This document shows, piece after piece, positions 14,701-64,000 of a DNA stretch of 64,000 bases. The first letter of the stretch is position 1. Every line of letters starts with the position of its first letter. The stretch covers positions 928,001 to 992,000 of the forward strand of contig CP068257.2 in assembly GCA_009914755.4 (NCBI GenBank). The letters are read 5' to 3'. The notes below the pieces were generated by a model. The model searched no databases and was not told the origin of the DNA. It was given only the letters and a program-made list of their open reading frames with translations. The stretch comes from the human T2T-CHM13v2.0 reference genome, Homo sapiens. The position numbers were made by a program, and so were the translations under genes.

Positions 14701-15299
14701 TTGTCTAGGTTTTGCGTACAGGGGGCTTTTTGACATACCTTTGCACTGATCACCCAGGTGATGTAACACATCTAAGTTCGGACTAAAGGAGCTTTGTGAC
14801 ATATCTCTGCACTGATCACTTAGGTGATGTAACACTTTTATAAGCACTGCCTACAGGGAATTTTGAAAAATCTCTGCACTGATCACCTAGGTGATGTAAC
14901 GCTTGTCTACCCTCTGTCCAACGGGGCATTGTGAAATATCTCTGCACTGATCACCCAGGTGATTCAACTCTTGACTAGGATCTGCCTACAGAGGTTATTG
15001 TGAAATATCTCTGCACTGATAACTAGGTGGTGTAACACTTATCCAAGCTCTGCCTACAGGGGCGTTTTCACATATCCCTGAAGTGATGACAAAGGTGATG
15101 TAACTCTTGCCTAGGCTTTGCCTACAGGGGACATTGGATATATATCTGCACTGATCACCCAGGTGATGCAACTCTTGCCTAGGATTTTCCTACAGGGGAC
15201 ATGGTGACATATCGCTTCAATGATCACCCATGTGATGCAACTCTTGCCTAGGCTTTGCCTACAGGGGACATTGTGACATATCTCTGCACTGATCTCCCA

Positions 15300-28500: not shown

Positions 28501-31500
28501 GGTGATGGGGCTTTTCTCTAGGCTCTGTCTAAGGGGGCATTGTGACATATTTCTGCATTGATCACCCACGTGGCGAACTCTTCTCTTGGATCTGCCTATG
28601 GGGGCATTGTGACAAATCTCTGCACTGATCACCCAGGTGATGTAACTGTTGTGTAACCTCTGCCTACAGGGAAATTGTGAGAGATCTCTCCACTGATCAC
28701 CCAAGTGATGTAACCATTGTCTAGGCTTGGCTTACAGGGGGATTTGTGACATACCTTTGCACTGATCACCCAGGTGATGTAACACATCTAAGTTCGGCCT
28801 AAAGGAGCTTTGTGACATATCTCTGCACTGATCACTTAGGTGATGTAACACTTTTATAAGCACTGCCTACAGGGAATTTTGACAAATCTCTGCACTGATC
28901 ACCTAAGTGATGTAACGCTCGTCTACCCTCTGTCCAACGGGGCATTGTGAAATATCTCTGCACTGATCACCCAGGTGATTCAACTCTTGACTAGGATCTG
29001 CCTACAGAGGTTATTGTGAAATATCTCTGCACTGATAAACTAGGTGGTGTATCCCTTATCCAAGCTCTGCCTACAGGGGCGTTTTCACATATCCCTGAAG
29101 TGATGACAAAGGTGATGTAACTCTTGCCTAGGCTTTGCCTACAGGGGACATTGGACATATATCTGCACTGATCACCCATGTGATGTAACTCTTGCCTAGG
29201 CTTTGCCTACAGGGGACATTGTGACATATCTCTGCACTGATCTCCCAGGTGCTGTAACTTTAGTCTAGACTCTGGCTACACGGCATTGTGACATATCACT
29301 GCACTGATCAACCAGGTGATATAACTCTTGTCTAGGCTCTGCCTACAGGGGGCTTGTGACATATCTCTGCACTGATCACCCAGGTGATATAACTCTTCTC
29401 TAGGATCTGCCTACAGGGTGCTTTGTGACATATCCCTGCAATGATCACCCAGGTGATCTAACTCTGGTTTAAGCTCTGCCTAAAGGGGCATTGTGACAGA
29501 TCTCTGCACTGATCACTCAGGTGATGTAACTATTGTCTAGGCTCTGCTTAAAGGGGCCTTGTCACATATCTCTGCACTGATCACCCAGGTGATGTAACTC
29601 TTGTCTAGCCTCTGCTTTCACGGCATATTGTGACATATCTATGCACTGATCACCTTAGTGATGTAACACTTGTGTAGGCTCGGCCTACGGGGGAACATTG
29701 ACATATCTCTGCACTGTTAACCGAGGTGATTTAACTCTTGTCTAGGCTGTGCCCACAGGGGGATTGAGACATATCTCTGCACTGATCCCGAGGTGATCCA
29801 ACTTTTGCCTGGTCTCTGCCTACTGGGGACATTGTGACATATCTCTGCATTGATCTCCCAGGTGCTGTAACTTTAGTCTAGGCTCTGACTACACGTCATT
29901 GTGACATATCACTGCACTGATCACCCAGGTGATATAAATCTTGTCTAGGCTCTGCCTACAATGGCCTTGTGACATATCTCTGCACTGATCACCCAGGTGA
30001 TATAACTCTTCTCTAGGATCTGACCACAGGGTGCTTTGTGACATTTCCCTGCAATGATCACCCAGGTGATATACCACTTGCCAAGGCTCTGCCTACAGGG
30101 GCATTGCAATGTATCTCTGCACTGATCACCTAGGTATTGTAACTCTTTTCTAGGATCTGCCCACTGGGTGCTTTTTGACGTATCCCAGCAAGGATTACGC
30201 AGGTGATGTACCTCTCATCAAGGCTCTGCCTACAGGCACATTGCGATGTATCTCTGCACTGATCACCTGGGTCATGTAACTTTTGTCTAGGCTCTGCCTA
30301 CGATGGCATTGTGACATATCTCTGCACTAATCATCCAAGTGATGTAACCAATGTCTAGTATCTGCCTAAATTAACTTTGTGACATAACCCTGTACTGATC
30401 ATCCAGGTGATGGGGCTTTTGTCTAGGCTCTGCCTAAGAGTGCATTGTGACATATTTCTGCATTGATCACCCAGGTGGCGAACTCTTCTCTTGGATCTGC
30501 CTATGGGGGCATTGTGAGAAATCTCTGCACTGCTCACCCAGGTGATGTAACTGTTGTGTAACCTCTGCCTACAGGGGAATTGTGAGAGATCTCTCCACTG
30601 ATCACCCAAGTGATGTTACCATTGTCTAGGCTTTGCGTACAGGGGGCTTTGTGACATACCTTTGCACTGATCACCCAGTTGATGTAACACATCTAAGTTC
30701 GGCCTAAAGGAGCTTTGTGACATATCTCTGCACTGATCACTTAGGTGATGTAACACTTTTATAAGCACTGCCTACAGGGAATTTTGACAAATCTCTGCAC
30801 TGATCACCTAGGTGATGTAACGCTTGTCTACCCTCTGTCCAACGGGGCATTGTGAAATATCTCTGCACTGATCACCCTGGTGATTCAACTCTTGACTAGT
30901 ATCTGCCTACAGAGGTTATTGTGAAATATCTCTGCATTGATAAACTAGGTGTTGTAACCCTTGTCCAAGCTCTGCCTATAGGGACGTTTTCACATATCCC
31001 TGAACTGATGACAAAGGTGATGTAACTATTGCCTAGGCTTTGCCTACAGGGGATATTGGACATATATCTGCACTGATCACTCAGGTGATGCAACTCTTGC
31101 CTAGGCTTTGCCTACAGGGGACATTGTGACATATCTCTCCACTGATCTCCCATGTGCTGTAACTTTAGTCTAGGCTCTGGCTACATGGCATTGTGACATA
31201 TCACTGCACTGATCAACCAGGTGATATAACACTTCTATAGGCTCTGCCTACAGGGGGCTTGTGACATACCTCTGCACTGATCACACAGGTGATATAACTC
31301 CTCTCTAGGATCTACCTACTGGGTGCTTGGTGACATATCCCTGCACTGATCACCCAGGTGATCTAACTCTCGTCTGAGCTCTGCCTAAAGGGCATTGTGA
31401 CAGATCTCTGCACTGATCACCCAGGTGATGTAACTCTTGTCTAGGCTCTCCTTGCAGGGCATATTGTGACATATCTGTGCACTGATCACCTTAGTGATGT

Positions 31501-34500
31501 AACACTTGTGTAGGCTCGGCCTACAGGGAAATCTTGACATATCTCTGCACTGTTAACCGAGGTGATTTAACTCTTGCCTAGGCTGTGCCCACAGGGGGAT
31601 TGAGACATATCTCCGCACTGATCCCGAGGTGATCTAACTCTTGCCTGGTCTCTGCCTACTGGGGACATTGTGACATATCTCTGCACTGATCAACCAGGTG
31701 ATATAGCTCTTGTCTAGGCTCTGCCTACAATGGTCGTGTGACATATCTCTGCACTGATCACCCAGGTGATATAACTCTTCTCTAGCATCTGACCACAGGG
31801 TGCTTTGTGACATATCCCTGCAATGATCACCCAGGTGATATACCACTTGCCAAGGTTCTGCCTACTGGGGCATTGCAATGTATCTCTGCACTAATCACCT
31901 TGGTCTTGTAAATCTTTTCTAGAATCTGCCCACAGGGTGCTTTGTGACGTATCCCAGCAAGGATTACCCAGGTGATGTACCTCTCATCAAGGCTCTGCCT
32001 ACAGGCACATTGCAATGTTTCTCTGCACTGATCACCTAGGTCATGTAACTTTTGTCTAGGCTCTCTACGATGGCATTGCGACATATCTCTGCACTGATCA
32101 TCCAAGTGATGTAACCCTTGTCTAGGATCTAGCTAAATTAACTTTGTGACATAATCCTGTACTGATCATCCAGGTGATGGGCCTTTTGTCTAGGCTCTGC
32201 CTAAGGGGGCATTGTGACATATTTCTGCATTGATCACCCAGGTGGCAAACTCTTCTCTTGGATCTGCCTATGGGGGCATTGTGACAAATCTCTGCACTGA
32301 TCACCCAGGTGATGTAACTGTTGTGTAACCTCTGCCTACAGGGGAATTGTGAGAGATCTCGCCACTGATCACCCAAGTGATGTAACCATTGTCTAGGCTT
32401 TGCGTACAGGGGCTTTGTGACATACCTTTGCACTGATCACCCTGGTGATGTAACACATCTAAGTTCGGCCTAAAGGAGCTTTGTGACATATCTCTGCACT
32501 GATCACTTAGGTGATGTAACACTTTTATAAGCACGGCCTACAGGGAATTTTGACAAATCTCTTCACTGATCACCTAGGTGATGTAACTCTTGTCTACCCT
32601 CTGTCCAACGGGGCATTGTGAAATATCTCTGCAATGATCAACCAGGTGATTCAACCCTTGACTAGGATCTGCCTATGGAGGTTATTGTGAAATATCTCTG
32701 CACTGATAAACTAGGTGGTGTAACCCTTGTCCAAGCCCTGCCTACAGGGGCGTTTTCACATATCCCTGAACTGATGACAAAGGTGATGTAACTCTTGCCT
32801 AGGCTTTGTCTACAGGGGATATTGGACATATATTTGCAGTGATCACCCAGGTGATGCAACTGTTGCCTGGGCTTTGCCTACAGGGCACATTGTGACATAT
32901 CTCTTCAATGATTACCCATGTGATGCAACTCTTGCCTAGGCTTTGCCTACAGGGGACATTGTGACATATCTCTGCACTGATCTCCCAAGTGCTGTAACTT
33001 TAGTCTAGGCTCTGGCTACACGGCATTGTGATATATCACTGCACTGATCACCCAGGCGATATAACTCTTGTCTAGGCTCTGCCTACAATGGTCTTGTGAC
33101 ACATCTCTGCACTGATCACCCAGGTGATATAACTCTTCTCTAGGATGTGACCACAGGGTGCTTTGTGACATATCCCTGCACTGATCACCCAGGTGATCTA
33201 ACTCTGGTCTAAGCTCTGCCTAAAGGGGCATTGTGACAGATCTCTGCACTGATCACTCAGGTGATGTAACTGTTGTCTAGACTCTGCTTAAAGGGGCCTT
33301 GTCACATATCTCTTCACTGATCACCCAGGTGATGTAACTCTTGTCTAGGCTCTGCTCCCAGGGAATATTGTGACATATCTATGCACTGACCACCTTAGTG
33401 ATGTAACACTTGTGTAGGCGCGGCCTATAGGGGAATCTTGAAATATCTCTGCACTGTTAACCGAGGTGATTTAACTCTTGTCTAGGCTGTGCCCACAGGG
33501 GGATTGAGACATATCTCTGCACTGATCCCGAGGTGATCCAACTCTTGCCTGGTCTCTGCCTACTGGGGACATTGTGACATATCTCTGCACTGAACTCCCA
33601 GTTGCTGTAACTTTATTCTAGGCTCTGGCTACGCGGCATTGTGACATATCACTGCACTGATCACCCAGGTGATATAACTCTTGTCTAGGCTCTGCCTACA
33701 ATGGTCTTGTGACATAACTCTGCACTGATCACCCAGGTTATATAACTCTTCTCTAGGATCTGACCACAGGGGGCTTTGTGACATATCCCTGCAATGATCA
33801 CCCTGGTGATATATCACTTGCCAAGGCTCTGCCTACAGGGGCATTGCAATGTATCTCTGCACTGATCACCTAGGTCTTGTAACTCTTTTCTAGGATCTGC
33901 CTACAGGGTGCTTTGTGACGTATCCCAGCAAGGATTACCCAGGTAATGTACCTCTCATCAAGGCTCTGCCTACAGGCACATTGCGATGTTTCTCTGCACT
34001 GATCACCTATGTCATGTAACATTTGTCTGGGCTCTGCCTACGATGGCATTGTGACATATCTCTGCACTAATCATCCAAGTGATGTAACTCCTGTCTAGGA
34101 TCTGCCTAAACTAACTCTGTGACATAACCCTGTACTGATCATCCAGGTGATGGGGCTTTTGTCTAGGCTCTGCCTAAGGGGGCATTGTGACATATTTCTG
34201 CATTGATCACCCAGGTTGCGAACTCTTCTCTTGGATCTGCCTATGGGGGCATTGTGACAAATCTCTGCACTGATCACCCAGGTGATGTAACTGTTGTGTA
34301 ACCTCTGCCTACAGGGGAATTGTGAGAGATCTCGCCACTGATCACCCAAGTGATGTAACCATTGTCTAGGCTTTGCGTACAGGGGGCTTTGTGACATACC
34401 TTTGCACTGATCACCCAGTTGATGTAACACATCTAAGTTCGGCCTAAAGGAGCTTTGTGACAAACCTCTGCACAGATCACTTAGGTGATGTAATACTTTT

Positions 34501-34559
34501 ATAAGCACTGCCTACAGGGAATTTTGGCAAATCTCTGCACTGATCATCTAGGTGATGTA

Positions 34560-37300
34560 ACTCTTTTCTAGGATATGCCTACAGAGGGCGTTGTGACATC
34601 ACTCTGCACGGTTCACCCGGGTTATGTAACCCTGGTCTAGGCTCTGCCTATGGGGCATTGTGACTTATCTCTGCACTGATCACCCCGGAGATGTGACTCT
34701 TTTCTAAGCTCTTCCTAGAGGGACATTTGGACATATCTCTGCACTGATTGCTGAGATGCTGTAAAACTTGTCTACGCTTTGCCTACAGTGGGATTTATGA
34801 CATATCTCTGCACTGATCACCCAGGTGATGTAACTAGTGTCTAGGCTCTGCTTACAGGGAGTATTGTGAGATACCTCTGCACTGACCACACAGGTGATGT
34901 AGCTCTTGTCTCGTCTCTGCCTACAGGGGCATTTTCACATATCACTGCACTAATCACCGAGATGATGTAACTCTTTCATAGGCTTCGCCAACAGGGGGCA
35001 TTGAGACATACCTCTGCACTGATCACCGAGGTGATGCAACTCTTGTCTGGGATCTGCTTACAGGGGGCATTGTGACATATCTCTGCCCGGATCACCCAGG
35101 TGATGTAACTCTTGTCTAGGCAATGCCTACTGGAGTCAATGTGACATATCTCCGCACTGATCACCCAGGTGATGTCACTTTTGTCAAGGATATGGCTACA
35201 GGGACATTGTGACATGTCACTGCACTGATCACACAGCTGATGTAACTCTTGTCTAGGCTCTGGCTACAGGTGGCTTGTGACACATATCTGCATTGATCAC
35301 CCAGGTGATGTAACCCTTTTCTAGGCTCTGCCAAAAGCGGACATTGTGACATAAATCTGCAATGATCACCCAGGTGTTGGGACTCTTGTCTATGCTCTAC
35401 CTATAGGGGCATTGTGACATATCTCTGCCGTGATCACGCAGGTGATGTAACTCTTCTCTATATGTGCCTACTGGCGGCATGGTGGCATAATTCTGCACTG
35501 ATCAACCAGCTGATGGATCCTTGTCTTGGATCTGCGTCTGGGGGCATAGTGACATATCTCTGCACTGATCACTCATGTGATGTAACACTTGTCTAAGCTG
35601 CGACAAAAGGGGAATTGTGACAGATGTCTCCAGTGATCACCGAGGTGATGTAACAATTTTCTAGGATTTGTCTACAGGGGGCTTTGTGCTATATCTTTGC
35701 ACTGATCACCCAGGAGACGTAACTCTTGTCTAGGCCTGGCCTACAGGGGCTTTGTGACATATTTCTGCACTGATCACCAAGGTGATGTAACACTTGTTTA
35801 GGCTCTGCCTGCATGGGCTTTGTGTCCTATATCTGTACTGATCACCCATGTGTTGTAACTCTTGTCTAGGCTCCACCTACAGGGGCTGTTGTGACGTATC
35901 TCTGCACTGATCACCCAGGTGATGTAACTCTTGTCTAGGCTCCACCTACAGTGGGTATTGTGACGTAACTCTACAGAGATCACCCAGGTTATGTAACTCT
36001 TGTCCACTCTCTGCCTACAGGGTCATTGTGAACTGTCTCTGCACTGTTCACCCAGGTGATGGGACTCTTCTCTATACTCTGCCTGGAGGGGGATTTGTGA
36101 CATATCTCTGCACTGATCACTCAGGTGATGGAAGTCTTGTCTAGGCTCTGTCTATGCGCGCATTGTGTCAAATATCTGCACTGATCACCCAGGTGATGTA
36201 ACTCTTGTCTAGGCTCTGTCTACAGGGATTTTTGTCACATATGACTGCACTGATCACCGAGCTGATGTAAGCCTTGTATGGGCTTTGCATATAGAAGGCT
36301 TTATGACATACCTATGCACTGATCTCTGAGGTGATGCAACTCTTGTCTAGGCACTGCGTACAGGGGACATTGGTACATATCTCTGCACTGATCACCCAGG
36401 TGATGGACTCTTGTCTTAGACCTGCCTACGTGGACATTGTGACACATCTCTGAACTGATCAACCAAGTGATGAAACTCTTGTCTAGGCTCTGCCTACATG
36501 GGCTTTGCGACACATCTCTGCACTGTTCACCCTGGGGAGGGAACTCTTGTCTACGCTCTGCCTACAGGAGGCTTTATGACTTATACCTGCACTGATAACC
36601 TAGTTGATGTAACACTTGTCTAGGCTCTGCCTACATGGGAATTCTCACAAATCTCTGCACTGATCACCCAGGTGATGTAACTCCTCTCTAGGTTCAGCCT
36701 ACAGGAGTGTTTTGACATACCTCTGCACTGATCACCCAGGTGATGTAACCCTTGTCTAAGCTCTGCCTACAGGGGCATTGTGACAGATCTCTCCACTGCT
36801 CACCCAGGTGATGTAACAATTGTCTGGGCTTTGCCTACAGTGGGCTTTGTGATATACATTTCCACTGATCAAACAGGTGATGTAACCCTTGTCAAGGTTC
36901 TGCTTACAGGGGCTTTGTGACATATCTCTGCACTGATCACCCCAGGGAGGAAACACTTGTCTACACTCTGCCTCCTGGAGGCTTTATGACTTATCCCTGC
37001 ACTTATCACTAGGTGATGTAACACTTGTCTAGGCTCTGTCTACACAGCAATTTTCACATATCTCTACAATGATCACCTAAGTGATGTAACCCTTGTCTAG
37101 GTTCAGCCTACTGGGGATTTCTGACATACCTAAGCACTGATCACCTAGGTGACATAAATCATTTCCAGGCTTTTTTTACAGGGAACATTTTGAAATATCT
37201 CTGCACTGATCACCCAAATGATGCAAATCTTCTCTAGGCTCCTCAGGGAGTGGCATTGTGACATATTTATGAACCAATCATCCAGGAGGTGTAACTGTTC
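34560..37300. repeat. Diverged beta-satellite block (older, roughly monomeric) 3' of DUX4L copy 1. Homologous to the blocks at 55,660-58,205, and in part to 42,700-44,450 and 47,2xx-50,340.
   Basis: The monomer periodicity continues, but identity to the HOR array breaks at ~34,555-34,580. The segment 'ggcgttgtgacatcactctgcacggttcacccgggttatgtaac' matches 55,690 and 62,975. The spurious ORF 'MFPPWGDQCRDMSQSPCKQNLDKGYITCLISGNVYHKA' recurs at 36756, 43840, 49797 and 57664. Confidence 0.8.
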
Positions 37301-38021
37301 TGCAGGCTGTGTCTAAAGAGCGTCGGAAGGTGTTGGGAGAGCCTCAGCCGGAATTTCACGGATGGAGAAGGGCACAGAGAGGCCATCGATCTCCCTTGCA
37401 CGTCAGCTGCGGTGTGCAATGTGTGCAGGTGTAGCCAGGAGGCCGGCAAAGAGAGCTAGAGGTCTGCCTTCCCCCACCAGGCGCTCCATGGTGGCAGCTG
37501 GGAGGCTGCAGGTGGACAGGCGGGCCGGTGACTCTGGCGCAGAGGCGCAGAGGAGGTGAACCGCTGGAAGTTTGTCTGGCCTGGACACCACGCGGGGTCG
37601 GTGTTTCATGGGAAGGGAGTCTCCACCCAGACCCGGAGAGGACGCATTTTCTGGGGGTGGGGTGTGGGTGTGGGGTGGGGGTGTTCAGGCTGGGGTGAGG
37701 TAGTGGAAAGTCATGATAGCTCTGCCCGGGCTCCTCCCACAGCCCAGGCAGCTGCCCGCAAACCCGCGCGTACGCAGTAGGCGGCCCACCTGCTGGTACC
37801 TGGGTCGGCTATGGGATCCCCAGGATGCCCAGGAAAGAATGGCAATTCTCCGCTGTGTGGAGTCTCTCACCGGGCCTAGATCTGGAAGGCAGGAATCCCA
37901 TGCCGGTCAGCCCGGTGGAGGAGGTGTGGGGAAGACATGCCCCTCCACAGCCAGCCAGGTTTTCCCCGCGAAATAGAGGCCACCGCCCTGCCCCGACCCG
38001 ACACCGTCCAAACCTCACGTC

Positions 38022-39439
<1,418 letters not shown>

Positions 39440-40059
39440 TCATGAATGGCGGTGAGCCCTGGACAGCCCGCCCCACCCCGGAAGGGTCCCAGGGCGTCGA
39501 GGCCTGCGGCTGGGTGTTGGTGGGTTGGGGGGGGACTGCTTGGTGATGCTCGTGGTGGGGCCGGAGAGACGAAGAGTAAGGGGGCGAGTGGGAATTGGTT
39601 AGGGGGGCGCGTTTTGGTGGCTGGCTCTCCGGACCTCTCCAGGAATCCCGCGGGAACTGGAAGCCGCTCTCTGTGCTCCCATCCATCTTCAGCAGGGAGA
39701 AACCGGCCTGGGAGGATGCAGGGGAGTGTGGAACTGAACCTCCGTGGGAGTCTTGAGAGTTCCAGGACCTCTCTCCGTGAAGGAGGCAGTGCCTGTGCGT
39801 GTCGCCGCTGCCGGGACAGTCTCACACGCGTAGGAGTGTGGCTCTCGTTCATTTCCACGTAGGAGACCAGAGCGAGACCCCAGAGAGAAGATGCCTCCCC
39901 AGCGTGATGGTCTGATGATGGATTCCCGTGTGTGGCAACATGGGGAGTCTGCAGTGTGGCTGGTTTGGAAACTGGCAAGGAGAGCGAAGGCACCATGCGT
40001 GTCTTCAACCCCTCCCTGCATGTTTCCGGGTGCTGCAGAGCTCTGGGAGCAAACAGTCA

Positions 40060-42634
<2,575 letters not shown>

Positions 42635-42648
42635 ATCTCTGCACTGTT
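42635..42648. repeat. Target-site duplication (right copy) of the AluY insertion.
   Basis: See the left copy. Confidence 0.9.
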
Positions 42649-44449
42649 AACCGAGGTGATGTAACTCTTGTTTAGGCTCTGCCTACAGGGGCCTTGTGAC
42701 GTATCTCTGCACTGGTCACCCAGGTGATGTAACTCTTGTCTAGGGTCCACCTACAGGGGGTATTGTGACGTATCTCTGCAGTGAGCACTCAGGTGATGTA
42801 ACATTTATCTAGGCTCTGCCTGCAGGGGAGTTTTGAAATAGCTCTGCACTGATCACCTAGATTATGAAACTTTTGTCCACTCTCTGCCTACAGTGGACAT
42901 TGTGAAATATCTCTTCACTGATCACACGGGTGATGGTACTATTCTCTATACTCTTCCTAGAGGGGGATTTGTGACATATCTCTGCACTGATCACCCAGGT
43001 GATGGAAGTCTTGTCTAGGCTCTCTCTATGGGGACATTGTATCAAATATCTGCACTGATCACCCAGGTGATGTTACTCTTTTCTTGGCTCCACCTACAGG
43101 GGATATTGTGATGTAACTCTACACAGATCACCTAGGTTATGTAACTCTTTTCCACTGTCTGCCTACAGGGTCATTGTGAACTATCTCTGCACTGAGCATC
43201 CAGGTGATAGGACTCTTCTCTATACTCTGCCTGGAGGGGGATTTGTGACATATCTCTGCACTGATCACCCAGGTGATGGAAGTCTTAGCTAAGCTATGTC
43301 TATGGGGGCATTGTGTCAAATATCTGCACTGATCACCCAGGTGATGTATCTCTTTTCTCGGTTCTGTCTACAGGGATTTTTGTCACATATGACTGCACTG
43401 ATCACCTAGGTGATGTAAGCCTTGTATGCACTTTGCCTATAGAAGGCTTTATAACACATCTATGCACTGATCTCTGAGGTGATGCAACTCTTCTCTAGGC
43501 ACTGCCTACACGGGACATTGGTACAAATCTCTGCACTGATCACCCAGGTGATGGACACTTGTCTTAGATCTGCCTAAATGGACATTGTGACATCTCTGAA
43601 CTGATCAACCAAGTGATGAAACTCTTGTCTAGGCTCTGCCTACAGGGGCTTTGTGACACATCTCTGCACTGATCACCCTGGGGAGGGAACTCTTGTCTAT
43701 GCTCTGCCTACAGGAGGCTTTATGACTTATAGCTGCACTGATAACCTAGTTGATTTAACACCTGTCTGGGCTCTGCCTTCACGGGAATTCTCACATATCT
43801 CTGCGCTGATCACCCGGGTGATGTAACCCCTGTCTAGGTTCAGCCTACAGGAACGTTTTGACATATCTCTGCACTGATCACCCAGGTGATGTAACCCTTG
43901 TCTAAGCTCTGCCTACAGGGGCATTGTGACAGATCTCTCCACTGCTCACCCAGGTGATGTAACAATTGTCTGGGCTTTGCCTGCGGGGCTTTGTGATATA
44001 CATTTCCACTGATCAAACAGGTGATGTAACCCTTGTCAAGGTTCTGTTTACAGGGGCTTTGTGACATATCTCTGCACTGATCACCCCAGGGAGGAAACAC
44101 TTGTCTACACTCTGCCTACAGGAGGCTTTACGACTTATCCCTGCACTGATCACTAGGTGAGGTAATACTTGTCTAAGCTCTGTCTACACGGGAATTTTCA
44201 CATATATCTACAATGATCACCTAAGTGATGTAACCCTTGTCTAGATTCAGCCTACCGGGCATTTCTGACATACCTATGCACCGGTCACTGAGGTGATGCA
44301 AATCATTTCCAGGCTTTTTGTACAGGGGACATTGTGATATATCTCTGCACTGATCACCCAAATGATGCAAATCTTCTCTAGGCTCTGCAGGGAGGGGGCA
44401 TTGTGACATATTTCTGAACTGATCATCCAGGAGATGTAACTATTCCCCA

Positions 44450-44450
<1 letters not shown>
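42635..44450. repeat. Diverged beta-satellite block (distal part) 3' of DUX4L copy 2.
   Basis: Homologous to 35,870-37,300 and 56,790-58,205. For example, 'ggatttgtgacatatctctgcactgatcacccaggtgatggaagtcttgtctaggctct' appears at 42,96x, 36,08x and 57,00x. Confidence 0.8.
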
Positions 44451-47224
<2,774 letters not shown>

Positions 47225-47225
<1 letters not shown>

Positions 47226-50200
47226 ATGACACATCTCTGAACTGATCAACAAAGTGATGTAACACTTGTCTAGGCTCTGCCTACAGGGGTTTTGTGACAT
47301 ATCTCTACACTGATCACCCAGCTGATGGGACATTTGTCTAGGCTATGCCTGTGGGGGCATTGTGACATATCTCTACACTGATCACCCAGGTGATGTAACA
47401 CTTCTGTTGGATCTGCCTATGGGGGCTTAGTGACATATAGCTGCACTGATCACCCAGGTGATGGGACACTTGTCTAGACTCTGCTTATGGGGGATTTGTG
47501 ACATATCTCTGAACTGATCACCCAGGTGATGTAACGCTCGACTAGGCTCTGCCTACGGGGCATAGTGACATATCACTGCATTGATCACCGAGGTGATGTA
47601 ACTCTTGTCCAGGCTCTTCCTATAGGGGGACTTGTGACATATCTCTGCACTGATCATCTAGGTGATGTAACTCTTGCTAAAGCTCTCCCTGCAGGGGCAT
47701 TGTGAAATGTCTCTGCACTGATCACCCAGGTGAAGGGACTCTTCACTAGGCTCTGCCTACTGGGGGCATTGTCACATATTTCTGCACTGATCAAACAGGT
47801 GACGGACTCTTGTCTTGGATTTGCCTTTGGGGGCATTTTGACATATCTCTTCACTGATCACCCACGTGATGTAACTGTGGTCTAAGCTCTGCCTAAAGGG
47901 GCATTGTGACAGATCTCTGCAATGATCACTCAGGTGATGTAACTATTGTCTAGGCTCTGCTTAAGGGGGTCTTGTCACATATCTCTGCACTGATCACCCA
48001 GGTGATGTAACTCTTGTCTAGGCTCTGCTTAAAGGGGGTATTGTGACATATCTCAGCACTGATCACCTAAGTGATGTAACACTTGTGTAGGCTCTGCCTA
48101 CAGGGGCATTTTGACATATATCTGCACTGTTAACCGAGGTGACGTTACTCTTGTCTAGGCTATGCCCACAGGGGGATTGAGACATATCTCTGCACTGATC
48201 CCGAGGTGATCCAACTATTGGCTGGTCTCCACCTACTGGGGACATTGTGACATATTTCTGCACTGATTTCCCAGGTGTTGTAACTTTATTCTAGGCTCTG
48301 GCTACACGGCATTGTGACATATCACTGCACTGATCACCCAGGTGATATAACACTTGTCTAGGCTCTGCCTACAGGGGCATTGCGATGTATCTCTGCACTG
48401 ATCACCTAGGTCATGTAACTCTTGTCTAGGCTCTGCCTACAGTGGCATTGTAACATATCTTTGCACTGATCACCCAGGTGATTCAACTCTTTTCTAGGAT
48501 GTGCCTACAGGGAGTATTGTGAAATATCTCTGCACTGTTCACCTATGTGATGTAACTCTTGTCTAGGCTCTGCCTACAGGAGCGTTTTCACATATCACTG
48601 AACTGATGACAAAGGTGATGTAACTCTTGCCTAGGCTTTGCCTACAGAGGACATTGTGACATATATCTGCACTGATCACCCAGATGATGCAACTCTTCCA
48701 TACGCTTTGCCTACAGGGGACATTGGGACATATCCCTGTACTGATCACCCATGTGATGCAACTCTTCTCTATGCTCTGCCTACAGGGTTCATTGTGACAT
48801 ATTTCTGCACTGATCACCCAGGTGATGTAGCTCTTGTCTAGGCTCCACCTACAGGGAGTATTGTGACATATCTCTGCACTGATCACCCAGGAGATGTAAC
48901 TGTTGTCTAGGCTCCACCTACAGGGGGTATTGTGACGTGTCTCTGCACTGATCACCCAGGTGATGTAACATTTATCTAGGCTCTGCCTACAGGGGCGTTT
49001 TGACAAAGCTCTCCACAGATCACCTAGGTTATGTAACTCTTGTCCACACTCTGCCTACAGGGGGCATTGTGAAATATCTCCGCAATGATCACCCAGGTGA
49101 TGGTACTCTTCTCTATACTCTGCCTATAGAGGGATTTGTGACATATCTCTTCACTGATCACCCAGGTGATTGAAGTCTTGTATATGCTCTGTCTATGGGG
49201 GCATTGTGTCAAATTTCTGCACCAATCACCCGGGTGATGTAACTCTTGTGTAGGCTCTGTCTACAGGGATTTTTGTGACGTATCACTGCACTGATCACCT
49301 AGGTGATGTAAGCCTTGTATGGGCTTTGCATACAGAAGGCTTTGTGACATTTCTATGCACTGATCTCTGAGGTGATGCAACTCTTGTCTAGGCACTGCCT
49401 ACAGGGGACATTGGTACATATCTCTGCACTGATCACCCAGGTGATGGACTCTTGTCTTACATCTGCCTACATGGACATAGTGACATATCTCTGAACTGAT
49501 CAACCAAGTGTTGAAACTCTTGTCTAGGCTCTGCCTACAGGGGCTTTGTGACACATCTCTGCACTGATCACCCTGGGGAGGGAACTCTTGTCAACGCTCT
49601 GCCTACAGGAGGCTTTATGACTTATACCTGCACTGATAACCTAGGTGATGTAACACTTGTCTAGGCTCTGCCTACACAGGAATTCTCACATATCTCTGCA
49701 CTGATCACCCAGGTGATGTAACTCCTGTCTAGGTTCAGACTACAGGTGTGTTTTGAAATATCTCTGCACTGATCACCCAGTTGATGTAATCCTTGTCTAA
49801 GCTCTGCCTACAGGGGCATTGTGACAGATCTCTCCACTGCTCACCCAAGTGATGTAACAATTGCCTGGGCTTTGCCTACAGGGGGCTTTGTGATATACAT
49901 TTCCACTGATCAAACAGGTGATGTAACCCTTTTCAAGGTTCTGCTTACAGCGGCTTTGGTACATATCTCTACACTGATCACCCCAGGGAGGAAACACTTG
50001 TCTACACTCTGCCTACAGGAGGCTTTACTACTTATCCCTGCACTGATCACTAGGTGATATAACACTTGTCTAGGCTCTGTCTACACCAGAATTTTCACAT
50101 ATCTCTACACTGATCACCTAAGTGATGGAACCCTTGTCTAGTTTCAGCCTACTGGGGATTTCTGACATACCTATGCACTGATCACCGAGGTGATTTAAAT

Positions 50201-50349
50201 CATTTCCAGGTTTTTGTACAAGGGACATTGTGATATATCTCTACTCTGATCACCCAAATGATGCAAATCTTCTCTAGGCTCTGCAGGGAGGGGGCATTGT
50301 GACATATTTCTGAACCGATCATCGAGGAGATGTAACTATTCTCCAGGCT

Positions 50350-50350
<1 letters not shown>
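47225..50350. repeat. Diverged beta-satellite block between DUX4L copies 2 and 3.
   Basis: 68-bp periodicity. The flank-specific spurious ORFs recur here (48063 'MQKYVTMSPVGGDQ...' about 830 bp after copy 2; 49797 'MFPPWGDQCRDMYQS...' about 340 bp before copy 3). Confidence 0.8.
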
Positions 50351-53124
<2,774 letters not shown>

Positions 53125-53125
<1 letters not shown>

Positions 53126-56100
53126 ACACATCTCTGAACTGATCAACAAAGTGATGTAACAATTGTCTAGGCTCTGCCTACAGGGGCTTTGTGAAATATC
53201 TCTTCACTGATCACCCAGGTGATGGGACTTTTGTCTAGGCTCTGCCTATGTGGGCATTGTGACATATCTCTACACTGATCACCCAGGTGATGTAACTCTT
53301 GTGTTGGATCTGCCTATGGGGGCATTGTGACATATTTCTACACTGATCATCCAGGTGATGGGACTCTTGTCTAGGCTCTGTGTATGGGGGTTTTTGACAT
53401 GTCTCTGCACTGATCACACAGGTGATGTAACGCTTGACTAGGCTCTGCCTACGAGGCATAGTGACATATCACTGCATTGATCACCGAGGTGATGTAACTC
53501 TTCTCCAGGCTCTGACTATAGGGGGCCTTGTGACATATATCTGCACTGATCATCTAGGTGATGTAACTCTTGCTTATTCTCTGCCTGCAGAGGTATTGTG
53601 AAATATCTCTGCACTGATCACCCAGGTGACAGGACTCTTCTCTAGGCTGTGCCTCCTGTGGGCATTCTCACATATATCTGCACTGATCACCCAGGTGACA
53701 CACTCTTTTCCTGGATTTGCCTATGGGGTCATTGTGACATATCTCTGCAGTGATCACCCAGGTGATTTAACTCTGGTCTCAGCTCTGCCTAAAGGGGTAT
53801 TGTGACAGATTTCTGCACTGATCATTCAGGTGATGTAAGTATTGTCTAGGCTCTGCTTAAAGGGGCATTGTCACATATCTCTGCACTGATCACCCAGGTG
53901 ATGTAACTCTTGTCTAGGCTCTGTTTACATTGGGTATTGTGAAATATCTCTGCACTGATCACCTAAGTGATGTAACACTTGTGTAGGCTCTGCCTACAGG
54001 GGCACTTTGACATACCTCTGCACTGTTAACCGAGGTGATGTGACTGTTGTCTAGGCTGTGCCCACAGTGGGATTGAGACATATCTCTGCGCTGATTCCGA
54101 GGTGATCCAACTATTGCCTGTTCTCTGCCTACTGGGGACATTGTGACATATCTCTGCACTGATCTCCCAGGTGCTGTAAATTTAGTCCAGGCTCTGGCTA
54201 CACGGCATTGTGACATATCTGCACTGATCACCCAGGTGATATAACTCTTGTCTAGGCTCTGCCTACAGGGGGCTTGTGACATATCCCTACACTGATCACC
54301 CAGGTGATATAACATTTGTGTAGCCTCTGCCTACAGGGGCTTGTGACATATCTCTACACCGATCACCCACGTGATATAACTCTTCTCTAGGATCTGCCTA
54401 CATTGTGCTTTGTGACATATCCATGCAGTGATGACCCAGGTGATATACCATTGTCAAGGCTCTGCCTACAGTGGCTTTGCGATTTATCTCTGCACTGATC
54501 ACCTAGGTCATGTAACTCTTGCCTAGGCTCTGCTTACAGTGGCATTGTGTCATATCTCTGCAATGATCACCCAGGTGATGTAACTATTTTCTGGGATCTG
54601 CCTACTGGGTGCTTTGTGACATATCCCTGCAATGATCACCCAGGTGATGTACCACTTGTCAAGGCTCTGCCTACAGGGACATTGCGATGTGTCTCTGCAC
54701 TGACCACCTAGGACATGTAACCCTTGTCTAGGCTCTGCCTACAGTGGCATTGTGACATATCTCTGCACTCATCATCCAAGTGATGTAACACTTGTCTTGG
54801 ATCTGCTTAAAGGGACTTTGCGACATAACTCTGCGCTGATCATCCAGGTGATGGGACTTTTGTCTAGGCTCTGCCTAAGGGGGCATTGTGACATATTTCT
54901 GCACTGTTCACACAGGTGACCGACTCTTGTCTTGGATCTGCCTATGGGGGCATTGTGACATATCTCTGCACTGGTCACCCAGGTGATGTAACTGTTGTAT
55001 AAGCTCTGCCTACAGGGGAATTGTGAGAGATCTCGCCACTGATTAACCAAGTGATTTAACTATTTTCTAGGCTTTGCCTACAGGGGGCTTTGTGACATAC
55101 CTTTGCACTGATAAGCCAGGTGATGTAACTCATCTAAGTTCTGCCTAAGGGAGCTTTGTGACATATCTCTGCACTGACCATGTAGGTGATGTAACACTTT
55201 TATAAGCACTGCCTGCAAGGAATTTTGACAAATCTCTGCCCTGATCACCTAGGTGATGTAAATCTTGTCTACCGTCTCCCCAAAGGGGCCATTGGGAAAT
55301 ATCTCTGCACTCATAACCCAGGTGATTCTACTCTTGTCTAGGATCTGCCTAAAGGGGGTATTGTGAAATTTCTCTGCACTGATCAACTAGGTGATGTAAC
55401 TCTTGTCTAGGCTCTGTCTACCGGGGCGTTTTCACATATCCCTGAACTGATGACAAAGGTGATGTAACTCTTGCCTAGGCTTTGCCTACAGGGGACATTG
55501 TGACATATCTCTGTACTGATGACCCAGGTGATGCAACTCTTCTCTATGCTCTGCCTACAGGGGACATTGTGACACATCTCTGAACTGATCACCCAGGTGA
55601 TGCAACTCTTCTCTATGCTCTGCCTACAGGGGGCATTGTGACATATCTCTACACCGATCACCCAGGTGATGTAACTCCTTTCTAGTCTCTGCCTACCTAG
55701 GGCGTTGTGACATCACTCTGCACGGATCACCCGGGTTATGTAACTCTTGTCTAAGCTAACCTATCAGGGCATTGTGAATTATCTCTGCACTGACCACCCA
55801 GGAGATGTGACTCTTGTCAATGCTCTGCCTAGAGAGACATTGGGACATATCTCTGCACTGATCACTGAGGTGATGTAAAATTTGTCTAGGCTTCGCCTAC
55901 AGTGGGATTTATGACATATCTCTGCACTGATCACCCAGGTGATGTAACTCTTGTCTGGGCTCTGCCTACAGGGGCATTTTCACATATCACTGCACTGATC
56001 ACCGAGATGATGTAACTGTTGTATAGGCTTCGCCGACAGGGGACTTTGAGACATATCTCTGCACTGATCACCCAGGTGCTGCAACTCTTTTCTGGGATCT

Positions 56101-58214
56101 GCTTACAGGGGACATTGTGACATATCTCTGTCCTGATCACCCAGGTGATGTAACTCTTGTCTAGGCTCTGCCTACTGGAGGCATTGTGACATATCTCCGC
56201 ACTGATCACCCAGGTGGTGTCATTTTTGTCAAGGATATGGCCAGAGGGACATTGTGACATGTCACTGCACTGATCACACAGCTGATGTAACCCTTGTCTA
56301 GGCTCTGGATACAGGGGGCTTGTGACACATTTCTGCACTGATCACCCAGGTGATGGAACCGTTGTCTAGGCTCTGCCAAAAGGGGTTATTGTGACATAAC
56401 TCTGCAGTGATCACCGAGGTGATTGGACGCTGGTCTAGGCTCTGCCTACAGGGGCATTGTGACATATCTCTGCAGTGATCACGCAGGTGATGTAACTCTT
56501 GTCTATATCTACCTACTGGTGGAGTTGTGGCATATTTCAGCACTGGTCACCCAGGTGATGGACTCTTGTCTTGGATCTGCCTATGGGGGTATAGTGACAT
56601 ATCTCTGCACTGATCACTCATGTGATGTAACGCTTGTCTAAGCTGCGTCTAAAGGGGAATTGTGACAGATATCTCCAGTGATCCCCCAGGTGATGTATCA
56701 ATTTTCTGGGATTTGTCTACAGGGGGCTTTGTGACATATCTTTGCACTGATCACCCAGGTGATGTAACTGTTGTCTAGGCTCCACCTACAGGGGATATTG
56801 TGACGTATCTCTGCACTGATCACCCAGGTGATGTAACATTTATCCAGCCTCTGCCTACAGGGGCGTTTTGGCGTATCTCTGCACAGATCACCTAGGCTAT
56901 GTAACTCTTATCCACTCTCTGCCTACACGGGTCATTGTGAAATATCTCTGCCCTGATCAACCAGGTGATGGTACTCTTCTCTATACACTGCCTAGAGGGG
57001 GATTTGTGACATATCTCTGCACTGATCACCCAGGTGATGGAATTCTTGTCTAGGCTCTGTCTATGAGGGCATTTTGTCAAATATCTGCACTGATCACCCA
57101 GGTGATGTAACTATTCTCTAGGCTCTGTCTACAGGGATTTTAATGACATATCACTGCACTGATCACCTAGGTGGTGTAAGCCTTGTATGGGCTTTGCATA
57201 CAGAAGGCTTTGTGACATAGTCTATGCACTGATCTCTGAGGTGATGCTACTCTTGTCTAGGCACTGCCTACAGGGGTCATTGATATATATCTCTGCACTG
57301 ATCACCCAGGTGATGGACTCTTGTCTTAGATCTGCCTACATGTATATTCTGACACATATCTGAACTGATCAACCAAGTGATGAAACACTTGTCTAGTCTC
57401 TGCCTTCAGGGGCTTTGTGACACATCTCTTCACTGATAACCCTGGGGAGGGAACTCTTGTCTACACTCTGCCTACAGGAGGCTTTATGACTTTTACCTGC
57501 ACTGATAACCCAGGTGATGTAACACTTGTCTAGGCTCTGCTACAAGGGAATTCTCACATATCTCTGCACTGATCACCCAGGTGATGTAACTCCTGTCTAG
57601 GTTCAGCTACAGGAGCGTTTTGACATATCTCTGCACTGATCACCGAGGTGATGTAACCCTTGTCTAACCTCTGCCTAAAGGAGCATTGAGACAGATCTCT
57701 CCACTGCTCACCCAGGTGTTGTAACTATTGTCTGGGCTTTGCCTACAGGGGGCTTTGTGATATACATTTCCACTGATCAAACAGGTGATGTAACCCTTGT
57801 CAAGGTTCTGCTTACAGGGGCTTTGTGACATATCTCTTCCCTGATCACCCCAGGGAGGAAACACTTGTCTACACTCCGCCTACAGGAGGCTTTACAAACT
57901 ATCCCTGCACTGATCACTAGGAGATGTAACATTTCTAGGCTCTGTCTACACGGGAATTTTCACATATCTCTGCACTGATCACCTAAGTGATGTAACCCTT
58001 GTGTTGGTTGAGCCTACTGGGGATTTCTGACATACCTCTGCACTGATCACCGAAGTGATGTAAATCATTTCCAGGCTTTTTGTACAGGGGACATTGTGAT
58101 ATATCTCTGCACTTATCACCCAAATAATGCAAATCTTCTCTAGGCTCCACAGGGAGGGGGCATTGTGACATATTTCTGAACTTATCATCCAGGAGATGTA
58201 GCTCTTCTCCAGGC

Positions 58215-58215
<1 letters not shown>
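53125..58215. repeat. Diverged beta-satellite block between DUX4L copies 3 and 4 (5.1 kb, the longest spacer).
   Basis: 68-bp periodicity. 53,700-55,660 parallels the monomer order of the HOR array. 55,660-58,205 is homologous to 34,560-37,300. Confidence 0.8.
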
Positions 58216-60949
<2,734 letters not shown>

Positions 60950-60950
<1 letters not shown>

Positions 60951-63900
60951 CATGACACATCTTTGAACTGATCAACAAAGTGAGGTAACACTTGTCTAGG
61001 CTCTGCCTACAGGGGCTTTGTGACATATCTCTGCACTGATCACCCACGTGGTGGGACTTTTGTCTAGGCTCTGCCTATGGGGGCATTGTGACATATCTCT
61101 ACACTGATCACCCAGGTGATGTAACTCTTGTGTTGGATATGTCTGTGGGGGCATTGCGACATATTTCTGCACTGATCACCCAGGTGATGGGACTCTTGTC
61201 TAGGCTCTGTGTATGGGGGCTTTGTGACATATCTCTGCACTGATCACCCAGGTGATGTAACGCTTGATTAGGCTCTGCCTACGGGGCATAGTGACATATC
61301 ACTGAATTGATAATCGAGGTGATGTAACTCTTGTCCAGGCTCTGCCTATAGGGGGTCTTGTGACATATCTCTGCACTGATCACGTAGGTGATGTAACTCT
61401 TGCTTACGCTCTCCCTGCAGGGGCATTGTGAAATATCTCTGCACTGATCACCCAGGTGATGGGACTCTTCTCTAGGCTCTGCTTACTGGGGGAATTGTCA
61501 CATATGTCTGCACTGATAACCCAGGTGACGGACTCCTGTCTTTGATTTGCCTATGGGGGCATTGTGACATATCTCTGCACTGATCACCCAGGTGATGTCA
61601 CTCTGGTCTAAGCTCTGCCTAAAGGAGCATTGTGACAGTTCTCTGCACTGATCACTCAGGTGATGTCACTATTGTCTAGGCTCTGCTTAAAAGAGCCTTG
61701 TCACATATGTCTGCACAGATCATCCAGGTGATGTAACTCTTGTCTAGGCTCTTCTTACAGGGGGTATAGTGACAAATCTCTGCACTGATCACCTAAGTGT
61801 TGTAACACTTGTGTAGGCTCTGCCAACAGGGGGATTTTGACATATCTCTGCACTGTTAACCGAGGTGACGTAACTCTTGTCGAGGCTGTGCCCACAGGGG
61901 GATTGAGACATATCTCTGCACTGATGCCGGGGTGTTCTAACTCTTGCCTGGTCTCTGCCTACTGGGGTTACTGTGACATATCTCTGCACCAATCTCCCGG
62001 GTGCTGTAACTTTAATCTAGGCTCTGGTTACACGGAATTGTGACATATCACTGCACCCAAGTGATATAACTCTTGTCTAGGCTCTGTCTACATTGTTCTC
62101 GTGAGATATCTCTGCCCTGATCACCCAGGTGACATAACTCTTCTCTAGGATCTGCCTACAGGGTTCTATGTGACATATCCCTGCAATGATCACCCAGGTG
62201 ATATACCACTTGTCAAGGCTCTGCCAACAGGGGCATTGCGACACATCTCTGCACTGATCACCCAGGTAGTGTAACTGTTGTATAAGCTCTGCCTACAGCG
62301 GAATTGTGAGAGATCTCGCCACTGATCACCCAAGTGATGTAACAATTTTCTAGGCTTTGCCTATAATGGACTTTGTGACATACATTTGCACTGATCACCC
62401 AGGTGATGTAACTCATCTAAGTTCTGCCTACAGGAGCTTTGTGACATATCTCTGCACTGATCACTTAGGGTATGTAACAGTTTAATAAGCACTGCCTACA
62501 GGGAAATTGGACAAATCTCTGCACTGATCACCTAGGTGATGTAACTCTTGTCTACCCTCTGCCCAAAGGGGGCATTGTGAAATATCTCTGCAATGATCAC
62601 CCAGGTGATTCTACTCTTGTCTAGGATCTGCCCACAGGGGGTATTGTGAAATATGTCTACACTGATCAACTAGGTGATATAACTCCTGTCTAGGCTCTGC
62701 CTACAGGGGCGTTTTCACATATCCCTGAACTGATGACAAAGGTGATGTAACTCTGGCCTAGGCTTTGCCTACAGGGGACATTGTGACATATCCCTGCACT
62801 GATCACCCAGGTGATGCAACGCTTCTCTATGCTCTGCCTACAGCGGACATTGTGACATATCTCTGCACTGATCACCCAGTTGATGCAACTCTTCTCTATG
62901 CTCTGCCTACAGGGGGCATTGTGACATATTTCTGCACTGATCAACCAGGTGATGTAACTCTTTTCTAGTCTCTGCCGACAGAGGGCGTTGTGACATCACT
63001 CTGCACGGATCACACGGTTTATGTAAATCTTGACTAGGCTCTGCCTACGGGGGCATTTTCACATATCACTGCACTGATCACCGAGATGATGTAACTCTTG
63101 TATAGGCTTCGCCGACAGGGGGCATTGAGACATATCTCTGCACTAATCACCGAGGTGATGCAACTGTTGTCTGGGATCTGCTTACAGGCGGCATTGTGAC
63201 ATATCTCTGCCCTGATCACCCAGGTGATGTAACTCTTGTCTAGGCTCTGCCTACTGGAGACATTGTGACATATCTCCGCACTGATCACCCAGTTGATGTC
63301 ACTATTGTCAAGGATATGGCTATAGAGACATTGTGACATGTCACTGCACTGATCACAGAGCTGATGTAACTCTTGTCTAGGCTCTGGCAACAGGGGGCTA
63401 GTGACACATCTCTGCACTGATCACACAGGTGATGTAACTCTGTTCTAAGCTCTGCCTAAAGGGGCATTGTGACAGATCTCTGCACTGAGCACTCAGGTGG
63501 TGTAACTATTGTCTAGGCTCTGCTTAAAGGGGCCTTGTCACATATCTCTGCACTGATCACCCAGGTGATGTAACTCTTGTCTAGGCTCTGCTTACAGGGG
63601 GTATTGTGACATAACCCTGCACTGATCACCTAAGTGATGTAACACTTATGTAGTCTCTGCCTACAGTGGCATTTTGACATATCTCTGCACTGTTAACCGA
63701 GGTGATGAAACTCGTGTCTAGTCTGTGCCCACAGGGGGATTGGGACATATCTCTGCACTGATCCCGAGGTGATCCAACTCTTGCCTGGTCTCTGCCTACT
63801 GGGGACATTGTGACATACCTCTGCTCTGATCACCCAGGTGCTGTAACTTTAGTGTAGGCTCTGGCTACACGGCATTGTGACATATCACTGCACTGATTAC

Positions 63901-64000
63901 CCAGGTGATATAACTCTTGTCTAGGCTCTGCCTACAGGGGGCTTGTGACATATCTCTGCACTGATCACCCAGGTGATATAACTCTTCTCTAGGATCTGCC
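60950..64000. repeat. Diverged beta-satellite block 5' of DUX4L copy 4. It runs to the window edge; the macro-repeat probably continues beyond it.
   Basis: The spurious ORF '[63 protein letters not shown]' at 61789 is ~830 bp from the copy-4 boundary, as after copies 1-3. The 'gggcgttgtgacatcactctgcacgg' landmark is at 62,975. Confidence 0.8.

What the first reader, a model, noticed from the sequence alone, without database searches (positions are those of the whole stretch)
34560..64000. DUX4L units sit in a variable-length macro-repeat (truncated D4Z4 + 3-5 kb beta-satellite). The young HOR array seems to derive from the satellite on the promoter side of each DUX4L unit (higher coordinates, since the genes are on the minus strand).
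The four DUX4L units are not the classical 3.3-kb D4Z4 tandem. Each ~2.75-kb unit is separated from the next by beta-satellite of 4.1, 3.1 or 5.1 kb, with an AluY in the first spacer. The first ~0.8 kb and the last ~1.7-2.5 kb of each spacer are homologous between spacers; the same spurious ORF landmarks recur at fixed offsets of about 830 bp and 340 bp from the unit boundaries. The middle of each spacer varies. The monomer order found 0.7-2.5 kb to the right of each DUX4L unit ('ttaaccgaggtgat', 'gatcccgaggtgatccaact', 'ctggctacacggcattgtgacatatcactgcac') matches the order inside the young HOR. This suggests the HOR was seeded from that flank.
Basis: partly seen in the sequence, partly recalled or inferred. 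Interest (0 to 1): 0.6.

Follow-up and report, generated by a model that had tools for sequence, protein, structure and literature searches.

The report
DUX4-pseudogene / beta-satellite composite repeat with HOR
This is an ordinary, already described kind of primate heterochromatin: four decayed DUX4 (D4Z4-like) pseudogene units alternate with blocks of 68-bp beta-satellite, and one block has been amplified where it sits into a 34.5-kb higher-order array.

Summary
Four GC-rich 2.73-2.79-kb units (37297-40062, 44442-47226, 50357-53123, 58223-60952) carry disrupted DUX4-like reading frames on the minus strand. They are separated by 4.38 kb (including a 310-bp AluY with a target-site duplication), 3.13 kb and 5.10 kb of 68-bp beta-satellite. 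Both satellite/unit junctions are the same in all four units, so unit plus satellite was duplicated as one block of about 7.9 kb.

One correction: the spacers are collinear along their whole length (monomer identity 0.89-0.92). Their lengths differ only by whole-monomer indels, not by an unrelated middle.

The HOR claim also holds. Positions 1-34565 are a 28/29-monomer HOR (1.9-2.0 kb; copies 93-99.7% identical). Its monomer order (23-28, 01-19) recurs 0.65-2.5 kb on the promoter side of every unit at about 0.90 identity, against a 0.76 background and beating 200 of 200 order shuffles. The left flanks show nothing.

A refinement: the last HOR copy runs on collinearly into spacer S0, and no single flank is sister to the HOR. 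The array is therefore most likely an in-place amplification of its own spacer.

The kind is known: LSAU-BSAT composites, and the DUXY locus, where a chimpanzee spacer grew from 4 to 145 kb by HORs. Interest is low.

The parts
1..34565 (+). Beta-satellite higher-order repeat array, a 28/29-monomer unit of 1906/1974 bp with about 17.5 copies. It runs off the left end of the window.
   Evidence: Lag peaks at 1974, 1906 and 5854 bp. Copy map. Copies are 93-99.7% identical, mean 96.9%, and the copies nearest the right edge are the most diverged.
34566..37296 (+). Spacer S0: 40 monomeric beta-satellite monomers, the 3'-side flank of unit 0. It is collinear with the last 37 monomers of S3.
   Evidence: No collinearity with the HOR beyond chance.
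37297..40062 (-). D4Z4-like unit 0, a DUX4L pseudogene. DUX4 homology spans 38025-39268, and the pLAM-like tail spans 37232-37376.
40063..44441 (+). Spacer S1. It contains the proto-HOR run at 40716-42073 (positions 24-28, 01-03, 06-15, 17, 19).
42325..42634 (-). AluY insertion with a 12-bp target-site duplication (ATCTCTGCACTG), present only in this spacer.
   Evidence: The consensus used was recalled from memory.
44442..47226 (-). D4Z4-like unit 1, a DUX4L pseudogene. DUX4 homology spans 45191-46428, and the pLAM-like tail spans 44376-44515.
47227..50356 (+). Spacer S2. It contains the proto-HOR run at 47880-48766 (positions 23-28, 01, 04, 16-18), which has internal monomer deletions.
50357..53123 (-). 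D4Z4-like unit 2. The DUX4-like frame at 51060-52328 is open for 423 codons except for 3 in-frame stops. The pLAM-like tail spans 50272-50417.
   Evidence: (PDB DUX4 chains, E = 1e-42).
53124..58222 (+). Spacer S3, 75 monomers, the most complete spacer. Its proto-HOR run at 53776-55541 covers positions 23-28, 01-04, 06-17 and 19.
58223..60952 (-). D4Z4-like unit 3, a DUX4L pseudogene. DUX4 homology spans 58931-60159, and the pLAM-like tail spans 58138-58283.
60953..64000 (+). Spacer S4, cut by the window end. It has a proto-HOR run at 61606-62824 and a second run of positions 23-28, 01, 02 from 63443 to the window end.

Best explanation
The window is a stretch of primate heterochromatin of the LSau/beta-satellite composite type.

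1. An ancestral block of about 7.9 kb was duplicated head to tail several times. In gene orientation it read: about 5 kb of 68-bp beta-satellite, then a 5'-truncated D4Z4-like unit carrying a DUX4 retrogene, then a pLAM-like tail that runs back into beta-satellite.
2. The copies then diverged without homogenisation, by 14% in the GC-rich units and 7-10% in the satellite. The DUX4 frames decayed into pseudogenes. The spacers lost or gained whole 68-bp monomers by unequal exchange, which gives the 3.1-5.1 kb lengths. An AluY landed in one spacer.
3. Later, a segment of about 25 monomers in the spacer left of unit 0 was amplified in place. That segment lies 0.65-2.5 kb from the promoter side of a unit. 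It was closed into a 28/29-monomer unit by a 4-monomer internal duplication (positions 19-22 copy 28, 01, 02, 03). Unequal crossing-over, or a similar tandem-amplification process, expanded it to at least 34.5 kb, with a secondary period of about 5.85 kb (three units).

The architecture, the homologies and the junction identities are shown by the data. The order of events, the in-place origin and the unequal-exchange mechanism are inferred. I propose no cellular function: the DUX4L copies are pseudogenes without the 4qA poly(A) signal.
For: - 775 same-strand 68-bp monomers, interrupted only by the four units and the Alu.
- The units are DUX4 homologues: Pfam homeodomain, PDB DUX4 chains at E = 1e-42, tblastn over aa 1-424 at 73-84% identity.
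- Both junctions are shared by all four units, with 91-94% column identity.
- The spacers are collinear throughout and differ only by whole-monomer indels.
- The HOR order 23-28, 01-19 recurs in every promoter-side flank at about 0.90 identity. It beats 200 of 200 order shuffles and is absent from the left flanks.
- The HOR clade has 99% bootstrap, and HOR plus right flanks 100%. No single flank is sister.
- HOR-to-flank identity equals flank-to-flank identity.
- The last HOR copy plus S0 is collinear with S3 53776-58206, with one 6-monomer gap.
- HOR positions 20-22 have no counterpart in the flanks and duplicate 01-03.
- HOR copies are 93-99.7% identical and more diverged towards the array edge.
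- Literature: beta-composite arrays of beta-satellite interspersed with LSau (10.1101/2021.07.12.452052). LSAU-BETA composites with 80-95% identity in centromere transition regions (10.1101/2021.07.12.451456). 319 5'-truncated D4Z4-pLAM copies in LSAU-BSAT regions (PMC10620044). A DUXY spacer block that expanded from 4 to 145 kb through HORs in chimpanzee (PMC2671837).
Against: - The left end of the HOR array lies outside the window, so the predicted proximal flank and DUX4L unit to its left are unseen.
- The joint between the HOR and S0 is not seamless. The array ends at position 14 and skips the equivalent of six S3 monomers.
- The units diverge faster (14%; 11% outside CpG sites) than their flanks (7-9%). 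A single duplication age explains this only if substitution rates differ or the satellite is partly homogenised.
- No primate reference genome could be searched, so locus, species and annotation are unverified.
Confidence: 0.75

Rival explanations
1. The HOR was seeded from the promoter-side flank of a different macro-repeat copy, possibly on another chromosome. It arrived at its present position by transposition or non-allelic exchange and was not amplified in place.
For: The HOR/S0 joint has a 6-monomer discontinuity. The left boundary of the array is not visible. Acrocentric short arms are known to exchange sequence (general knowledge).
Against: Monomer order is preserved across the joint: HOR position 14 is followed by the S3-693 equivalent, and S0 then continues collinearly to the unit. 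The HOR is equidistant from all visible flanks, as expected for one more paralog. No flank is a supported sister.
Confidence: 0.15
2. The direction is reversed. The HOR array is the older element, and the ordered runs in each spacer are decayed single HOR copies that became part of the macro-repeat.
For: The identity values alone (about 0.90 each way) are symmetric and give no direction.
Against: The HOR-specific closure monomers 20-22 are absent from all five flank runs. The flank runs sit at the same offset from a shared junction in four units that differ by 14%. They therefore predate the homogenisation of the HOR, whose copies differ by about 3%. The HOR copies are monophyletic and nested among the flank segments when the tree is rooted with other beta-satellite.
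Confidence: 0.05
3. All or part of the pattern is an assembly artefact, such as a collapsed or mis-joined satellite.
For: Long satellite arrays are error-prone in assemblies. Nothing in the window can exclude this.
Against: Variation among HOR copies is structured: there are subfamilies, a 5854-bp super-period and an edge gradient. The junctions are clean and shared. There are no Ns.
Confidence: 0.05

Closest known systems
LSAU-BSAT (LSau/beta-satellite) composite repeat arrays of acrocentric short arms and pericentromeres, called 'beta-composite arrays' in T2T-CHM13 (Meneveri/Agresti; 10.1101/2021.07.12.452052; 10.1101/2021.07.12.451456)
   Same: 68-bp beta-satellite blocks alternate with D4Z4/LSau-derived GC-rich units that carry divergent DUX4 copies. 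Unit identity within the array is 84-87%, inside the 80-95% range reported for centromere transition regions.
   Different: No structural difference was found. The chromosome and the annotation could not be checked here.
5'-truncated D4Z4-pLAM paralogs, 319 copies in T2T-CHM13 (PMC10620044)
   Same: The unit is shorter than the 3.3-kb D4Z4. It keeps the DUX4 ORF region and ends in a pLAM-like segment followed by beta-satellite, as at the distal end of 4qA.
   Different: Our units measure 2.73-2.79 kb between the points where the satellite model stops, against about 3.1 kb reported; the boundary definitions differ. The ORFs are all disrupted. The ATTAAA site reads GTCACA, by comparison with a pLAM sequence recalled from memory.
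DUXY locus at Yq11.1/q11.21 (Schmidt et al. 2009, PMC2671837)
   Same: Four head-to-tail DUX copies are unequally spaced by beta-satellite blocks, and length variation is confined to the satellite. One spacer block expanded into HOR arrays (chimpanzee block III, 4 kb to 145 kb). An Alu lies in one spacer.
   Different: The block sizes do not match (human 1999/5243/3884/7709/125 bp; ours 4379/3130/5099 bp). DUXY copies lack the second homeodomain, whereas ours align over the whole DUX4 protein. The HOR is a 28/29-mer, not a 102- or 45-mer.
Canonical D4Z4 macrosatellite at 4q35 and 10q26
   Same: The DUX4 retrogene, a GC-rich unit, and a pLAM-then-beta-satellite arrangement at the distal end.
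   Different: There is no uninterrupted 3.3-kb tandem. Units are 14% diverged rather than nearly identical. There is no intact ORF and no poly(A) signal.

Membership tests
LSAU-BSAT composite repeat | Blocks of 68-bp beta-satellite monomers | tested here: met
   TRF period 68; 775 monomers found with nhmmer.
LSAU-BSAT composite repeat | D4Z4/LSau-derived GC-rich element with DUX4 homology between the satellite blocks | tested here: met
   GC 64-65%; homeodomain and DUX4 matches.
LSAU-BSAT composite repeat | The two elements are repeated together as one composite unit with the same junctions | tested here: met
   Junction alignments A1 and A2, 91-94% column identity; collinear spacers.
LSAU-BSAT composite repeat | RepeatMasker/cenSat annotation and location on an acrocentric short arm or in a pericentromere | not testable with these tools
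   No primate genome or Repbase/Dfam library was available.
Canonical D4Z4 array (4q35/10q26) | Uninterrupted head-to-tail 3.3-kb units of near identity | tested here: not met
   Units of 2.73-2.79 kb, separated by 3.1-5.1 kb of satellite, 84-87% identical.
Canonical D4Z4 array (4q35/10q26) | Intact DUX4 ORF of 424 aa | tested here: not met
   Stops or frameshifts in all four units.
DUXY locus (Yq11) | Beta-satellite block sizes and DUX copies that lack the second homeodomain (PMC2671837) | tested here: not met
   Spacers of 4379/3130/5099 bp; tblastn covers aa 1-424 including the second homeodomain.
Beta-satellite higher-order repeat array | A multi-monomer period whose copies are far more alike than neighbouring monomers are | tested here: met
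   28/29-mer; copies average 96.9% identity, against about 76% between adjacent monomers.

The most novel reading that the evidence does not exclude
The roughly 1.9-kb satellite segment on the promoter side of the composite unit may be a recurrent seed for beta-satellite HOR arrays. A second ordered run of the same positions starts at 63443 with a different junction. If such restarts are independent amplifications, many 'simple' beta-satellite arrays on acrocentric arms could descend from this one spacer segment of LSAU-BSAT composites, which would give beta-satellite arrays a defined birthplace.
Probability: 0.12. Interest if true: 0.4.

Novelty: new member of a known kind. Interest (0 to 1): 0.18.

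Why it matters
It matters little on its own. The window is a clean worked example of how a monomeric satellite spacer inside a composite macro-repeat becomes a homogenised HOR array. The ancestral monomer order is still readable in four or five diverged paralogs next to it. That could help to date and polarise beta-satellite evolution, and to annotate DUX4L pseudogene clusters that attract off-target reads in FSHD assays (PMC10620044). It opens no new question, because the architecture and the spacer-to-HOR expansion are both in the literature.

Tried and rejected
- Long BLAST alignments of HOR copies against the spacers were uninformative, because every register scores 76-80%. Monomer-level analysis was needed.
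- I looked for a gradient in which edge HOR copies are closer to the flanks, and so more ancestral. None exists: all copies are about 0.90 identical to S3.
- I tested whether one visible flank, especially the second run in S4, is the HOR's sister. It is not supported (25% bootstrap or less).
- An Rfam scan of 34000-64000 at gathering thresholds found nothing.
- The DUXY locus was considered as the identity of the window and rejected on block sizes and on the presence of the second homeodomain.
- The large protein and metagenome searches were not run. They hold no primate genomic context and could not change the verdict.

Full report
**What is in the window**

Tandem Repeats Finder and an nhmmer scan with the 68-bp consensus show one continuous, same-strand field of 775 beta-satellite monomers. 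It is interrupted only by four GC-rich blocks and one 310-bp insert. The blocks lie at 37297-40062, 44442-47226, 50357-53123 and 58223-60952, and have 64-65% GC against 47% in the satellite. The insert lies at 42325-42634. The blocks measure 2766, 2785, 2767 and 2730 bp and are 84-87% identical to each other along their full length.

**The units are DUX4L pseudogenes**

- ORF fragments on the minus strand contain homeodomains (Pfam PF00046, E = 9.5e-14).
- The best solved-structure matches are DUX4 and DUX4L chains at E = 1e-42.
In unit 2 a single frame is interrupted by three stop codons. None of the copies is intact.
- A 145-bp pLAM/exon-3 segment recalled from memory matches exactly once per unit, at the 3' junction, at 79-83% identity (E of 5e-23 or lower). 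At the position of the 4qA ATTAAA signal, all four copies read GTCACA.
- Each unit is therefore a 5'-truncated D4Z4 with a pLAM-like tail that runs into beta-satellite. This is the arrangement reported as the most common D4Z4-related form in T2T-CHM13: 319 copies, mostly in LSAU-BSAT regions of the acrocentric chromosomes and chromosome 1 (PMC10620044).

**The macro-repeat**

Both satellite/unit junctions are the same in all four units (alignments A1 and A2, 91-94% column identity). The composite was therefore copied as a whole.

In-register spacer alignments reach 81-89% identity, against 76-78% out of register. A monomer-level Needleman-Wunsch alignment shows that every spacer is collinear with the longest one (S3, 75 monomers) over its full length, at 0.89-0.92 identity. 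All length differences are whole-monomer indels; S2, for example, lacks 29 monomers. The ancestral block was about 7.9 kb.

The Alu is 96.8% identical to an AluY consensus recalled from memory. It has a poly-A tail and a 12-bp target-site duplication, and it occurs in one spacer only. It therefore inserted after the duplications.

**The HOR array**

Positions 1-34565 form a 28/29-monomer HOR of 1906/1974 bp, with a super-period of about 5854 bp. Copies are 93-99.7% identical (mean 96.9%). The copies nearest the right edge are the most diverged.

I assigned every spacer monomer to its best HOR position. This shows an ordered run of positions 23-28, 01-19 starting 0.65 kb to the right of each unit:

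| Spacer | Run |
|---|---|
| S1 | 40716-42073 |
| S2 | 47880-48766 |
| S3 | 53776-55541 |
| S4 | 61606-62824 |

The runs match the HOR at about 0.90 identity, against a background of 0.766 (SD 0.023). Shuffling the monomer order 200 times never reached the observed diagonal score in these four spacers. S0 and the left flank of unit 1 are at chance level.

In a neighbour-joining tree of 7-monomer segments:
- the HOR copies are monophyletic (99% bootstrap);
- the HOR plus right-flank segments form a clade (100%) against other satellite segments of the window;
- no individual flank is sister to the HOR (25% or less).

**Where the HOR came from**

- HOR-to-flank identity (0.89-0.93) equals flank-to-flank identity (0.89-0.92). 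The founder was one more paralog of the same age as the visible flanks.
- The last HOR copy, followed by S0, is collinear with S3 53776-58206, with a single 6-monomer gap at 34565/34566.
- HOR positions 19-22 have no counterpart in any flank. They are near-copies of positions 28, 01, 02 and 03 at 0.89-0.94 identity. This explains the 613-bp lag and marks the junction that closed the repeat unit.
- The most economical reading is in-place tandem amplification of the promoter-side segment of the array's own spacer, by unequal exchange, after the macro-repeat copies had diverged.
- The reverse direction is unlikely. The flanks lack positions 20-22, and they sit at fixed offsets in units that are 14% diverged.

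**Comparison with what is known**

- Beta-satellite interspersed with LSau/D4Z4-like elements has been described since Agresti and Meneveri. T2T-CHM13 annotates it as beta-composite or LSAU-BETA arrays, with 80-95% intra-array identity in centromere transition regions.
- Schmidt et al. describe the DUXY locus: four DUX copies unequally spaced by beta-satellite blocks. One block grew from 4 kb to 145 kb in chimpanzee through two HORs. This is a direct precedent for spacer-to-HOR expansion.
- Our window is not DUXY. The block sizes differ and the second homeodomain is present.
- Locus and species could not be determined, because no primate genome was searchable.

**Verdict**

The kind of structure is already known. 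This is at most a new, well-resolved example.

Noticed in passing
window 63443-64000: A second ordered run of HOR positions 23-28, 01, 02 (0.85-0.98 to the HOR classes, mean 0.93) starts directly after the monomer equivalent to S3 56296-56363. It is only 0.886 identical to the first run in the same spacer (61606 onwards). It is therefore either an old duplication or the scar of a deletion that removed a whole DUX4L unit. The window ends before this can be resolved.
   Followed up: partly
units 37297-40062, 44442-47226, 50357-53123, 58223-60952 versus their flanks: The GC-rich units differ by about 14% (11% outside CpG sites). The beta-satellite on either side differs by only 7-9%, and transversions outnumber transitions in most flank comparisons. 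Possible causes are unequal substitution rates, conversion among monomers, or alignment effects. This remains unexplained.
   Followed up: no
window 37232-37376, 44376-44515, 50272-50417, 58138-58283 (minus strand): A pLAM/DUX4 exon-3-like segment lies at the 3' junction of every unit and is partly beta-satellite-like itself. The site of the 4qA ATTAAA poly(A) signal reads GTCACA in all four copies. The comparison used a sequence recalled from memory.
   Followed up: partly
window 1-34565; partial copy at 15519-16131: The HOR contains an internal 4-monomer duplication: positions 19-22 resemble 28, 01, 02 and 03. This gives a 613-bp sub-period. It has also mediated at least one 9-monomer partial copy, plus copies of 26 and 27 monomers near the right edge.
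   Followed up: partly
window 51060-52328 (minus strand): The DUX4-like frame of unit 2 is open over 423 codons apart from three in-frame stops: one after the first homeodomain and two near the C-terminus. It is the least decayed copy.
   Followed up: yes
window 42325-42634: The AluY has 8 substitutions against the recalled consensus, 5 of them at CpG sites. Its target-site duplication lies inside a beta-satellite monomer. It gives a minimum-age marker for spacer S1.
   Followed up: yes
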